From IMG/VR virus record IMGVR_UViG_3300012980_000004, positions 1-64,000 of that record: a DNA stretch of 64,000 bases; one strand, given 5' to 3'. Below the pieces are notes generated by a model. The model had not been told where the DNA came from, did not search any database, and worked only from the letters and a program-made list of their open reading frames with translations. Positions 29,725 to 29,859 of the stretch are shown here, piece after piece. The position numbers and the translations under genes are program-made. Each line of letters begins with the position of its first letter. The first letter of the stretch is position 1. Source of the DNA: a virus.

Positions 29725-29859
29725 GGAAGTGCTCAAAATTAGTGGAACTTACACGCATCGACCAACGGTAGGTCATCTGTCTACGAAACAGAATGTTACA
29801 GGTTCGAATCCTGTTGCACCTCGAAAGAGGTTTTCCAGTTTCACACCTCGAGCGCTTCC
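29725..29859 (+). ncRNA. Closed tRNA-like RNA F (135 nt)
   Basis: A 10-bp terminal duplex GGAAGTGCTC(29725-34)/GAGCGCTTCC(29850-59) encloses four elements. These are D-arm GACC-AACGGTA-GGTC, anticodon-like arm TCTGT-CTACGAA-ACAGA, T-arm ACAGG-TTCGAAT-CCTGT and capped hairpin ACCTC-GAAA-GAGGT. Confidence 0.6.

What the first reader, a model, noticed from the sequence alone, without database searches (positions are those of the whole stretch)
29725..29859. RNA F and the strict open/closed tiling of the array
F is closed by GGAAGTGCTC(29725-34)/GAGCGCTTCC(29850-59) plus a second imperfect helix (29742-48/29838-46). It contains a D-arm, a canonical anticodon arm (CTACGAA, ACG) and a T-arm, followed by a GAAA-capped mini-acceptor (ACCTC/GAGGT). 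It is therefore a tRNA mimic opened at the position 8/9 linker. The five RNAs A, E, B, F and C tile 29302-29996 with only 2-8-nt spacers, alternating open-acceptor and closed forms. D follows after one small ORF. The long duplexes of E and F would be natural RNase III sites for processing a polycistronic precursor.
Basis: seen in the sequence. Interest (0 to 1): 0.6.

Follow-up and report, generated by a model that had tools for sequence, protein, structure and literature searches.

The report
Sealed tRNA mimic on a Y-RNA-like arm
RNA F is a real, conserved small RNA of huge bacteriophages: a tRNA-Arg look-alike that cannot be charged, mounted on a conserved double-stranded arm that two other kinds of tRNA-like RNA beside it also carry, and encoded next to a distant relative of the Ro60 RNA-binding protein, whose Y-RNA-type partner it most likely is.

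Summary
F (29725-29859) folds as described (z = -4.85) and has 50 distinct relatives in other huge-phage contigs. There, 96% of predicted pairs form and 25 of 27 pairs show compensatory changes.

Two corrections:
- The chain does not enter at the 8/9 linker. GCA (29755-57) pairs with UGC (29815-17) as an acceptor stub, and the GAAA-capped hairpin can stack on it (3+5 bp). F is therefore opened inside the acceptor 5' strand.
- RNase III is not needed to explain processing. Across phages, closed units start 3-6 nt after an open unit's acceptor end and stop 6-9 nt before the next one. Ordinary tRNA end-processing would release them.

The closing helices of E and F are the same conserved module as the giant arm of A-D: CAG-stem-CUCG-stem ... 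stem-ACA(A/C)GC. It occurs in three topologies.

The arrays sit on the same strand as a 629-aa vWA protein whose predicted fold matches only Ro60/TROVE proteins over its full length. Of 44 loci anchored on that protein, 37 hold an F-type RNA.

Best reading: a non-chargeable, YrlA-like Y RNA variant. F fails the YrlA sequence tests, so it is a new variant rather than a member.

This scan had already reached a similar view for neighbour E on this same window, not on other DNA.

The parts
29725..29734 (+). P1, 5' strand of the outer closing helix (GGAAGUGCUC). It corresponds to the 3' strand of the apical stem of the long arm in A-D.
   Evidence: In 50 relatives all 8 modelled pairs covary (helix 1, 94% of cells paired).
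29735..29741 (+). 5' side of the internal loop (AAAAUUA). It is the counterpart of AAAUCC in A-D.
29742..29749 (+). P2, 5' strand of the inner closing helix (GUGGAACU).
   Evidence: helix 2: 5 of 5 modelled pairs have compensatory changes.
29749..29756 (+). Conserved junction motif UUACACGC, i.e. Y-U-ACA(A/C)GC. ACA and GC are invariant in the 18-sequence alignment.
   Evidence: invariant A27 C28 A29 G31 C32; same motif in T1, T2 and T3.
29755..29759 (+). Acceptor stub 5' strand GCA (29755-57) followed by U8 and C9.
   Evidence: The Rfam tRNA alignment pairs GCA with UGC. The same 3-bp stub occurs in L078 (GCG/CGC) and L070 (GCA/UGC).
29760..29774 (+). D-arm GACC-AACGGUA-GGUC with A14, G18G19 and A21.
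   Evidence: helix 3: 100% of cells paired.
29776..29792 (+). Anticodon arm UCUGU-CUACGAA-ACAGA, anticodon ACG at 29783-85.
   Evidence: The 17-nt arm (5-bp stem, 7-nt loop) is identical in the L018/L087 homolog and differs from the phage's canonical tRNA-Arg(ACG) at 18878-18952.
29793..29797 (+). Normal 5-nt variable loop AUGUU. G46 is present and U48 can form the Levitt pair with A15.
29798..29814 (+). T-arm ACAGG-UUCGAAU-CCUGU.
   Evidence: helix 5: 99.6% of cells paired.
29815..29817 (+). Acceptor stub 3' strand UGC, directly after the T-stem.
29818..29831 (+). GAAA-capped 5-bp hairpin. It can stack on the stub to give an 8-bp sealed acceptor arm.
   Evidence: Equivalent capped hairpins occur in L078, L070b, L057, L063a, L009, L112, L127 and L126. 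Stub plus hairpin is mostly 7-8 bp.
29837..29844 (+). P2 3' strand AGUUUCAC, preceded by the UUUCC linker. Together these match the consensus CC-AG that precedes stem 1.
29845..29850 (+). 3' side of the internal loop, ACCUC, plus G. CUCG at 29847-50 is invariant.
   Evidence: (invariant C123 T124 C125 G126).
29850..29859 (+). P1 3' strand GAGCGCUUCC.
29302..29437 (+). RNA A, type 1: open 7-bp acceptor, with the long-arm module as a closed hairpin in the variable region.
29442..29584 (+). RNA E, type 2: module open at its tip, then T-arm, GCAA-capped acceptor, D-arm and anticodon arm (CGU).
29591..29721 (+). RNA B, type 1. Its acceptor end lies 3 nt before F.
29868..29995 (+). RNA C, type 1. 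Its 5' end lies 8 nt after F, so RNase P cleavage there would set F's 3' end.
30269..30402 (+). RNA D, type 1, after the small ORF 30000-30245.
23546..25435 (+). 629-aa protein with a Ro60-like architecture: helical ring region plus a C-terminal vWA domain with an invariant DxSxS motif. It is the candidate RNA partner.
25444..29259 (+). Co-directional cassette conserved beside the arrays: 331-aa protein, small proteins, JAB-like 27672-28088, 90-aa protein 28128-28400, and ThiF/E1-like 28681-29259.

Best explanation
F is a non-chargeable tRNA-Arg(ACG) mimic. It belongs to a family of phage small RNAs built from two modules.

Module 1 is a conserved 'long arm': two helices around an asymmetric internal loop with an invariant CUCG, flanked by CAG on one side and ACA(A/C)GC on the other. 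Module 2 is a tRNA-shaped body.

The family has three topologies:
- Type 1 (A-D): the arm is a closed hairpin in the variable region of an open-acceptor tRNA-like RNA.
- Type 2 (E): the arm is open at its tip and the acceptor is capped.
- Type 3 (F): the arm is open and joined to the acceptor end of a native-order D / anticodon / T body.

In F the acceptor is a 3-bp stub sealed by a GAAA hairpin.

Inferred steps:
1. The array is transcribed with the upstream cassette.
2. Host RNase P and tRNA 3'-end processing of the flanking type-1 units release F.
3. F's paired ends (the long arm) bind the phage's Ro60-like vWA protein, as Y RNA stems bind Ro60.
4. The exposed tRNA body, with a canonical anticodon loop, engages a tRNA-recognising factor as a tether or decoy rather than decoding.

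Shown here: the structure, its conservation and covariation, the shared module, the spacing rule, the gene linkage and the Ro60-like fold. Not shown: binding, processing and function.
For: Structure of F:
- z = -4.85.
- The tRNA core scores 46.9 bits but lacks acceptor positions 1-4 and 67-71.

Family:
- A covariance model built from 18 homologs scores F at 102.8 bits.
- It finds 53 full-length hits at 69.6 bits or more. Ordinary tRNAs score 61 bits or less.
- On the 51 hits that pass E <= 1e-14 (50 distinct sequences), 96.1% of cells pair and 25 of 27 pairs have compensatory changes. With partners slid by 1-3 columns only 31-45% pair.

Shared module:
- The same CAG / CUCG / ACA(A/C)GC consensus appears in 46 type-1, 19 type-2 and 22 type-3 units.

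Spacing:
- The type 1 to type 3 gap is 3-6 nt in 16 of 17 cases.
- The type 1 to type 2 gap is 3-5 nt in 11 of 12 cases.
- The type 2 or 3 to type 1 gap is 6-9 nt in 8 of 11 cases.
- The type 1 to type 1 gap is mostly 32-40 nt.

Linkage:
- Loci fetched by an RNA pattern alone carry the vWA / 331-aa / JAB / ThiF cassette. The ThiF gene is found in 15 of them, and about 20 hold at least one cassette gene.
- Of 44 loci fetched by the protein alone, 37 hold an F-type RNA, always on the protein's strand.
- The stricter pattern scan found units in 43 of 61 such loci and none on the opposite strand.

Protein:
- The structure model has mean pLDDT 85.8.
- Every full-length structural match is Ro60/TROVE: 9kop E = 1e-8, D. 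radiodurans Rsr 2nvo E = 6e-7, and Xenopus and human Ro60. Z = 12.8-14.1 over 400-428 residues.

Precedent (PMC4201824, PMC12135203):
- YrlA Y RNAs are tRNA mimics with a capped acceptor and paired ends.
- They are encoded within 4 kb of Ro60 on the same strand, and occur in phages.
- M. smegmatis YrlA is cut by RNase P.

Non-decoding:
- The acceptor is sealed.
- The phage has a separate canonical tRNA-Arg(ACG).
- Several type-3 relatives carry Leu or Ser anticodons without the class II long variable arm.
Against: - No direct evidence of RNA accumulation, RNA ends or protein binding.
- F fails the YrlA sequence tests. Rfam gives no YrlA hit at E <= 10 and F has no GNCGAA(N)G motif in its 5' strand. 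The invariant CUCG lies on the 3' strand, whereas Ro60 mainly reads the 5' strand of Y RNAs.
- The protein is only fold-level Ro60-like. Pfam TROVE is not detected, TM-scores are 0.36-0.49, and the full-length Z is no higher than that of the vWA domain alone.
- The equally conserved 331-aa protein, or the JAB / Ubl-like / E1 genes, could be the true partner.
- 31 of 51 type-3 relatives have 6-7-bp acceptor stems and near-canonical anticodon loops (U33 in 41 of 48, R37 in 45 of 48). Some members might therefore be released as working tRNAs.
Confidence: 0.55

Rival explanations
1. Decoy or sponge for tRNA-targeting factors, independent of the Ro60-like protein. F displays an authentic tRNA-Arg(ACG) anticodon arm on a nuclease-resistant, uncharged scaffold. 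This would absorb a host anticodon nuclease or a tRNA-modifying or tRNA-sensing defence protein. The long arm would serve only for stability. This reading overlaps with the tether-or-decoy step of the best explanation and is not exclusive of it.
For: - F's anticodon arm is identical in a phage whose proteins are only about 63% identical (L018/L087), while other stems covary.
- Type-3 loops keep tRNA rules (U33, R37), yet the acceptor is sealed or truncated in about 20 of 51.
- Type-1 relatives often carry anticodon-like loops with position 33 changed.
- Phage tRNAs with altered anticodon loops are proposed to evade anticodon nucleases (PMC10264068, abstract seen).
Against: - It does not explain why one specific internal-loop module (CUCG, ACA(A/C)GC) is conserved in all three topologies.
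- It does not explain why the arrays are tied to the vWA/Ro60-like cassette.
- Anticodon triplets are very diverse (26 different in 48), so no single nuclease target stands out.
Confidence: 0.17
2. Precursor of a working tRNA. The closing helices are a leader-trailer processing cassette. RNase P and 3' processing would release a tRNA-Arg(ACG) from F.
For: - 31 of 51 type-3 relatives have a 6-7-bp acceptor stem that starts at the GC of ACA(A/C)GC.
- Their loops are canonical.
- ARAGORN calls many of them tRNAs.
Against: - F itself has only a 3-bp acceptor stub, and its 3' strand runs into a capped hairpin. No 7-bp acceptor and no free 3' end can be produced.
- The phage already has a canonical tRNA-Arg(ACG) at 18878-18952.
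- The same module sits inside the variable region of A-D, where it cannot act as leader or trailer.
Confidence: 0.05
3. Passive spacer or RNase III processing element. E and F exist only to separate and release the open-acceptor RNAs A-D and are then degraded.
For: - E and F fill the gaps between open units almost exactly.
- Their ends form 18-20 bp of duplex.
Against: - A spacer would not need a complete tRNA body with all tertiary-contact nucleotides and a conserved anticodon loop.
- It would not need 96% pairing with covariation in five helices.
- It would not be present in 37 of 44 cassettes.
- In L011 open units are released without closed spacers, with 33-37-nt gaps.
- The duplex is interrupted by a conserved 7 x 5-nt loop.
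- The phage has no RNase III gene.
Confidence: 0.05
4. Substrate or cofactor of the adjacent JAB / Ubl-like / E1-like (ThiF) genes. One example would be a sulfur-relay modification of the tRNA-like RNAs, as TtuB/TtuC do for tRNA in Thermus. Another would be an RNA-guided conjugation system. The vWA protein would be accessory.
For: - The ThiF-like, JAB-like and 90-aa genes are as tightly linked to the arrays as the vWA gene.
- The array starts 43 nt after the ThiF-like gene, with no predicted promoter or terminator between them.
- ThiF/MoeB-type E1s act in tRNA thiolation pathways (established knowledge; the weak TcdA/MoeB-type matches show only the family).
Against: - No tRNA thiolase (TtuA/MnmA-type PP-loop enzyme) was identified in the cassette.
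- The JAB assignment is weak (E = 0.004, below the Pfam cut-off).
- Nothing links the conserved CUCG arm to these enzymes.
Confidence: 0.1

Closest known systems
YrlA-type bacterial and phage Y RNAs (Rfam RF02553; Chen et al. 2014, PMC4201824)
   Same: - Small RNA whose 5' and 3' ends pair into a stem.
- tRNA-like domain with canonical T- and D-arm nucleotides and a capped acceptor-like stem.
- A YUAY motif after the 5' stem strand (UUAC at 29749-52 in F).
- Encoded a few kb from a Ro60-type gene on the same strand, together with other tRNA-like RNAs and tRNAs in one precursor.
- Present in phages.
   Different: - F keeps the native tRNA order (D, anticodon, variable, T) and a full anticodon arm. 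YrlA runs (V)-T-acceptor-D and replaces the anticodon arm by the Ro-binding stem.
- In F the stem joins at the acceptor end, not at the anticodon or variable position.
- No GNCGAA(N)G motif. The conserved signature is CUCG on the 3' strand plus ACA(A/C)GC.
- Not detected by the Rfam model.
- The linked protein is Ro60-like by fold only.
Phage phiLo Ro60 with Yrl1/Yrl2 (PMC12135203; PDB 9KOP, 9L5Y)
   Same: A phage-encoded Ro60-type ring protein with phage-encoded stem / internal-loop / stem RNAs next to its gene. 9kop is the best structural match of the window's protein.
   Different: - phiLo Yrls carry the CGAA motif in the internal loop and, as far as the passages read here describe them (stem-bulge-stem with a CGAA motif), no tRNA body.
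- The window's protein is about 100 residues longer, with an extra N-terminal beta domain, and shares about 15% identity.
Canonical tRNA (RF00005), here the phage's own tRNA-Arg(ACG) at 18878-18952
   Same: D, anticodon and T arms, a 5-nt variable loop, U8, A14, G18G19, A21, G46, T-loop UUCGAAU, and loop CUACGAA.
   Different: - The acceptor stem is reduced to 3 bp and sealed by a hairpin, so there is no free 3' end.
- 30 nt on the 5' side and 28 nt on the 3' side form the long arm.
- The anticodon stem sequence differs from the canonical gene.
Circularly permuted tRNA genes of Cyanidioschyzon merolae and related algae (from my own knowledge; not read here)
   Same: tRNA parts in a non-standard gene arrangement with a closed acceptor in the precursor. 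Type 2 (E) relatives even encode N73-CCA in the cap.
   Different: - F is not permuted.
- There is no bulge-helix-bulge motif.
- The host is bacterial (the phage carries a tmRNA).
- No route to a mature tRNA is evident for F.

Membership tests
YrlA Y RNA (RF02553) | Match to the Rfam covariance model | tested here: not met
   cmscan of 29150-30500 at E <= 10 lists only tRNA and a chance CRISPR-DR match.
YrlA Y RNA (RF02553) | GNCGAA(N0-1)G motif near the 5' end (PMC4201824) | tested here: not met
   29725-29756 (GGAAGUGCUCAAAAUUAGUGGAACUUACACGC) contains no CGAA.
YrlA Y RNA (RF02553) | 5' and 3' ends pair into a stem that carries the protein-binding site | tested here: met
   P1 and P2 were confirmed by folding and by covariation in 50 sequences. 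Protein binding itself was not tested.
YrlA Y RNA (RF02553) | tRNA-like domain in the order (V)-T-capped acceptor-D, without an anticodon arm | tested here: not met
   F has D, anticodon, V and T arms, then a stub and a capped hairpin. Neighbour E has the YrlA order plus an anticodon arm.
YrlA Y RNA (RF02553) | T- and D-loop nucleotides that allow tRNA tertiary contacts | tested here: met
   U8, A14, A15/U48, G18G19, A21, G46 and UUCGAAU are present.
YrlA Y RNA (RF02553) | Encoded within about 4 kb of a Ro60 ortholog on the same strand | tested here: inconclusive
   F starts 4.3 kb after the end of the 23546-25435 gene on the same strand, and 37 of 44 protein-anchored loci have an F-type RNA. 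The protein is Ro60-like by fold only and has no TROVE Pfam match.
tRNA (RF00005) | Cloverleaf core scoring above the gathering threshold | tested here: met
   46.9 bits against a threshold of 29, over model positions 5-66.
tRNA (RF00005) | 7-bp acceptor stem with a free 3' end for CCA and aminoacylation | tested here: not met
   Only GCA/UGC pair. The 3' strand continues into ACCUC-GAAA-GAGGU and then into the long arm.
Ro60/TROVE protein (for ORF 23546-25435) | Helical TROVE ring followed by a vWA domain with a MIDAS motif | tested here: inconclusive
   - The vWA domain is clear (PF13519, 1.4e-6), and D436-x-S438-x-S440 is invariant.
- The only matches longer than 400 residues are Ro60/TROVE structures (E 1e-8 to 3e-5, Z 12.8-14.1).
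- TM-scores are only 0.36-0.49. A closed ring was not verified in the model.
Ro60/TROVE protein (for ORF 23546-25435) | Sequence match to Pfam TROVE (PF05731) | tested here: not met
   No hit at E <= 10 for the protein. No hit in the whole genome at E <= 1. The profile search against PDB gives TROVE chains only at E = 0.11.
Permuted tRNA gene | 3' half encoded upstream of the 5' half | tested here: not met
   F has the native order.

The most novel reading that the evidence does not exclude
Huge phages carry a modular RNP system. One protein-binding RNA arm is combined with tRNA-shaped 'heads' in three different topologies: a hairpin inserted in the variable region, a circular permutation with a capped acceptor, and a graft onto the acceptor end. 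Each head displays a different anticodon-type loop. The Ro60-like protein would use this panel to present, sequester or bait tRNA-recognising host factors such as anticodon nucleases, modification enzymes or tRNA-damage sensors. This would be a programmable set of tRNA decoys or tethers, not a single Y RNA.
Probability: 0.25. Interest if true: 0.85.

Novelty: new variant of a known kind. Interest (0 to 1): 0.66.

Why it matters
Bacterial Y RNAs are known as tRNA mimics, but only in one layout and with a function that is still unclear. This locus shows the same idea diversified in huge phages.

- Non-redundant units of three topologies were found: at least 96, 32 and 35 by the pattern scan. All share one conserved arm, and they are tied to an abundant protein family (over 1,500 homologs) that is Ro60-like only at the fold level.
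- It gives a natural example of one RNA module used as an insertion, as a circular permutation and as a terminal graft.
- It supplies a set of sealed tRNA mimics with real anticodon loops, which makes testable the question of what the tRNA-like half of a Y RNA is for.
- It flags likely mis-annotation. ARAGORN calls F, and many of its relatives, ordinary tRNA genes.

Tried and rejected
- blastn of the whole array against INPHARED phages: no match. Relatives had to be found by a motif scan.
- Rfam at E <= 10: nothing for A-D, and no YrlA for E or F.
- Single-sequence AlphaFold of the vWA protein: pLDDT 39, unusable. phmmer against PDB: nothing.
- The search for related loci with the 40-sequence alignment and with the single protein failed. 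A 13-sequence alignment worked.
- Sigma-70 promoter and terminator scan of 28900-31100: nothing above shuffled expectation and nothing inside the array.
- Phage-encoded RNase III and CCA-adding enzyme: none found.
- DNA-level inverted repeat of a mobile element: considered and rejected. G-U pairs, strand-specific motifs, zero pattern-scan units on the opposite strand and use of the module as a hairpin inside A-D all argue for RNA structure.
- A-D as small tmRNAs or intron-bearing tRNAs: considered and rejected. ARAGORN finds the real tmRNA elsewhere, and there is no ORF, no group I intron size and no BHB motif.
- ORFs overlapping F (29729-30034 +, 29773-29913 -) are treated as spurious, given the RNA covariation.
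- My script estimate of acceptor-stub length is crude. Subclass counts come from the model alignment instead.
- Complex prediction was not used, because it cannot take RNA.
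Full report
**Setting.** The window is the first 64 kb of a 393,220-bp virus record with direct terminal repeats, that is, a huge phage. ARAGORN finds 42 tRNAs in the window. In the whole genome it also finds a tmRNA and two UCA-anticodon tRNAs. The finding lies in an RNA array that starts 43 nt after a ThiF-like gene.

**Observation.**
- The minimum-energy fold of 29725-29859 gives the outer helix 29725-34/29850-59 (10 bp, one G-U) and the inner helix 29742-49/29837-44 (8 bp, one G-U).
- It also gives the D, anticodon and T hairpins and the GAAA-capped hairpin. 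The energy is -46.6 kcal/mol against -30.0 +/- 3.4 for shuffles, z = -4.85.
- ARAGORN calls tRNA-Arg(ACG) at 29751-29822.
- Rfam's tRNA model scores 46.9 bits but only for model positions 5-66.
- That alignment shows GCA 29755-57 paired with UGC 29815-17, followed by U8 and C9. The chain therefore leaves the tRNA body inside the acceptor 5' strand, not at the 8/9 linker.
- The hairpin ACCUC-GAAA-GAGGU follows UGC directly. If stacked, it would give a 3+5 = 8-bp sealed acceptor arm.
- In relatives with a short stub and a capped hairpin, the sum is mostly 7-8 bp. Examples are L078 at 3+4, L057 at 4+4 and L009 at 4+3. L063a is longer at 3+8.
- The stacking is an inference.

**Tiling.** A 29302-29437, E 29442-29584, B 29591-29721, F 29725-29859 and C 29868-29995 are separated by 4, 6, 3 and 8 nt. 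D follows an 81-codon ORF.

**Relatives.** blastn found nothing in deposited phage genomes.
- A motif scan of IMG/VR with the TACAAGC / T-arm signature of A-D returned 81 loci, many in 200-450-kb contigs with several copies.
- Scripts extracted full units of three kinds.
- F-type units were aligned (18 sequences). RNAalifold recovered both closing helices and the three tRNA arms, with 24 of 27 pairs showing compensatory changes.
- A covariance model from this alignment scores F at 102.8 bits.
- In 44 loci fetched independently through the neighbouring protein, it finds 53 full-length hits between 69.6 and 116 bits. Ordinary tRNAs stay at 61 bits or less. F is the only high-class hit in the window.
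- On the 51 hits that pass E <= 1e-14 (50 distinct sequences), 96.1% of cells pair and 25 of 27 pairs have changes on both sides. No shuffle reaches the observed values, and sliding the partners drops pairing to 31-45%.
- F is therefore a member of a conserved, structured RNA family.

**One module, three topologies.** I anchored on the invariant CUCG and ACA(A/C)GC and compared the flanks of all units.
- In A-D-like units (type 1, 46 sequences) the order is CC-(A/G)G, stem 1, (A)CUCG, stem 2, tetraloop, stem 2', 3-6 nt, stem 1', Y-U-ACAAGC, then the T-arm.
- In E-like (type 2, 19 sequences) and F-like (type 3, 22 sequences) units the same two halves occur with the same consensus. The RNA's 5' and 3' ends replace the tetraloop.
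- In type 2 the ACAAGC leads to the T-arm, then a capped acceptor, the D-arm, the anticodon arm and CCAG. This is an exact circular permutation of type 1.
- In type 3 the ACA(A/C)GC runs straight into the acceptor 5' strand of a native-order tRNA body, and the 3' strand returns through ...CAG. The module is grafted onto the acceptor end.
- So the 'long duplexes of E and F' and the 'giant variable arm of A-D' are the same element.
- Many type-2 caps encode N73-CCA, sometimes with a small hairpin. This recalls M. smegmatis YrlA, which RNase P cuts and which then receives CCA (PMC4201824). E's own cap is a bare GCAA.

**Array grammar.** Across non-redundant neighbours:
- A type-3 unit starts 3-6 nt after a type-1 acceptor end in 16 of 17 cases.
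- A type-2 unit starts 3-5 nt after it in 11 of 12 cases.
- Type-1 units start 6-9 nt after a closed unit in 8 of 11 cases.
- Two type-1 units are mostly 32-40 nt apart.
- The order T1-T2-T1-T3 of this window recurs in L017/L109 and L113.
- The abutment means that RNase P at the 5' end of the next open unit, and tRNA 3'-end processing of the previous one, would define both ends of E and F.
- No RNase III step is required, the phage has no RNase III gene, and the helix is interrupted by a conserved 7 x 5-nt loop.
- No promoter-like or terminator-like site lies within the array.
- All processing statements are inferences.

**The linked protein.**
- tblastn of the upstream genes against the RNA-fetched loci shows a conserved cassette beside the arrays. 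It comprises the 629-aa vWA protein, the 331-aa protein, a JAB-like protein, a 90-aa protein and a ThiF/E1-like protein. About 20 of the RNA-fetched loci hold at least one of these genes, at 40-70% identity. The ThiF gene, the most widespread, is found in 15 of them.
- Conversely, of 61 loci fetched by the vWA protein alone, strict pattern matching finds units in 43. All are on the protein's strand and none on the other.
- The model finds an F-type RNA in 37 of the 44 loci searched.
- The protein family is large, with more than 1,500 hits, and carries only vWA Pfam domains.
- With a 40-sequence alignment AlphaFold gives mean pLDDT 85.8.
- Foldseek's best matches over about 500 columns are all Ro60/TROVE proteins: phage phiLo Ro60 9kop at 1e-8, D. 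radiodurans Rsr 2nvo at 6e-7, and Xenopus and human Ro60.
- VIA-align gives Z = 12.8-14.1 over 400-428 residues for these entries and no others. All other matches cover only the vWA domain.
- TM-scores are modest (0.36-0.49) and Pfam TROVE is not detected in the genome.
- I therefore call the protein Ro60-like in architecture, not a demonstrated ortholog.
- The genome also encodes an RtcB RNA ligase at 75496-76614. That gene is often linked to Ro60/Y RNA operons (PMC4201824; PMC7790460 abstract).

**What F most likely is.** Taken together, F fits the logic of YrlA-type Y RNAs: paired ends, a tRNA-like domain with a sealed acceptor, a YUAY motif after the stem, and a position beside a Ro60-type gene in a polycistronic tRNA-rich context.
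- It fails the sequence-level tests: no Rfam hit, no GNCGAA(N)G motif, and a different arm order.
- It is therefore a new topological variant rather than a YrlA member.
- The body is a faithful tRNA. It has U8, A14, the A15/U48 pair, G18G19, A21, G46 and a standard T-loop.
- Its 17-nt anticodon arm (5-bp stem, 7-nt loop) is identical in the L018/L087 homolog, whose Ro60-like protein is about 63% identical, and differs from the phage's own tRNA-Arg(ACG).
- Across the family the loop obeys tRNA rules: 7 nt in 48 of 51, U33 in 41 of 48, R37 in 45 of 48. The triplets are diverse, and A34 is unusually frequent at 12 of 48.
- Because F's acceptor is sealed, it cannot decode.
- I propose that the arm binds the Ro60-like protein and the tRNA body engages a tRNA-recognising factor as tether or decoy.

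Confidence by claim:
- Real conserved structured RNA: about 0.97.
- Non-decoding: about 0.85.
- Ro60-like partner and Y-RNA-type role: about 0.55.

**Rivals.**
- A pure decoy role is not exclusive of the above.
- A pre-tRNA reading is possible for the 31 of 51 relatives with 6-7-bp acceptors, but not for F.
- A passive spacer is hard to square with five covarying helices and a conserved anticodon loop.
- A role with the JAB / Ubl-like / E1 genes cannot be excluded, because these are as tightly linked as the vWA gene.

**Earlier notes of this scan.**
- Before opening the scan's notes I had already recorded the Ro60/YrlA idea as something to test.
- The notes then showed that a follow-up on neighbour E in this same window reached a similar reading.
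- I re-tested the fold match, the linkage and the YrlA features independently.
- I add the type-3 topology, the shared module, the spacing rule and the corrected opening point.

Noticed in passing
window 29302-29437, 29591-29721, 29868-29995, 30269-30402, and loci: The open-acceptor type-1 RNAs carry 7-nt anticodon-like loops in which position 33 is often not U. Examples are CGGUAAA in A and three other phages, CAUUCAA in B, and CCGUUAA and CCACGAA elsewhere. GUA- and GUU-type triplets are frequent. Many relatives encode N73-CCA, so these RNAs may be chargeable yet poor decoders.
   Followed up: partly
L019:2633-2794, L019:3479-3635, L019:3799-3958, L076:8687-8848, L043:13154-13299, L051:2501-2648: Type-2 (E-like) relatives whose acceptor cap contains discriminator-CCA, sometimes followed by a small hairpin. 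This is what a permuted tRNA gene cut by RNase P and trimmed to CCA would look like. E in this window has only a GCAA cap.
   Followed up: partly
genome C1:65695-65768, 66310-66384 and 67020-67422 (just beyond the window): Two tRNAs with anticodon UCA, called SeC by ARAGORN and possible UGA suppressors, and a phage tmRNA with tag ANDNAIRAAA. This raises the question of stop-codon reassignment or suppression late in infection.
   Followed up: no
genome C1:75496-76614: Full-length RtcB RNA ligase (408 bits), about 45 kb from the Ro60-like gene. No phage RNase III or CCA-adding enzyme was found.
   Followed up: partly
window 25444-29259: A cassette conserved with the RNA arrays in many phages: a 331-aa protein with no Pfam family, small zinc-ribbon-like proteins, a weak Prok-JAB match (27672-28088, E = 0.004), a 90-aa protein, and a short 192-aa ThiF/MoeB-type E1 (1.4e-20). 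Its link to tRNA-like RNAs is unexplained.
   Followed up: partly
window 49904-49986 and 49128-49185: Rfam tRNA hits (38.4 and 30.0 bits; the second covers only model positions 9-63) that ARAGORN does not call. No tRNA-His or tRNA-Trp was called anywhere in the genome.
   Followed up: no
window 30400-30410: A run of about ten C immediately after RNA D's acceptor 3' strand. D also has a possible G-1:C73 eighth acceptor pair (GGGGCAAU/AUUGCCCC).
   Followed up: no
F-type relatives in A6 (e.g. L117:14781-14910, L142:8494-8624, L100:19488-19614): A quarter of type-3 anticodon loops (12 of 48) have A at position 34: AUC, AUG, AUU, ACG, AAU and ACU. In bacteria A34 is normally confined to tRNA-Arg(ACG). 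Several loops carry UAA, UGA or UAU triplets on bodies without a class II variable arm.
   Followed up: partly
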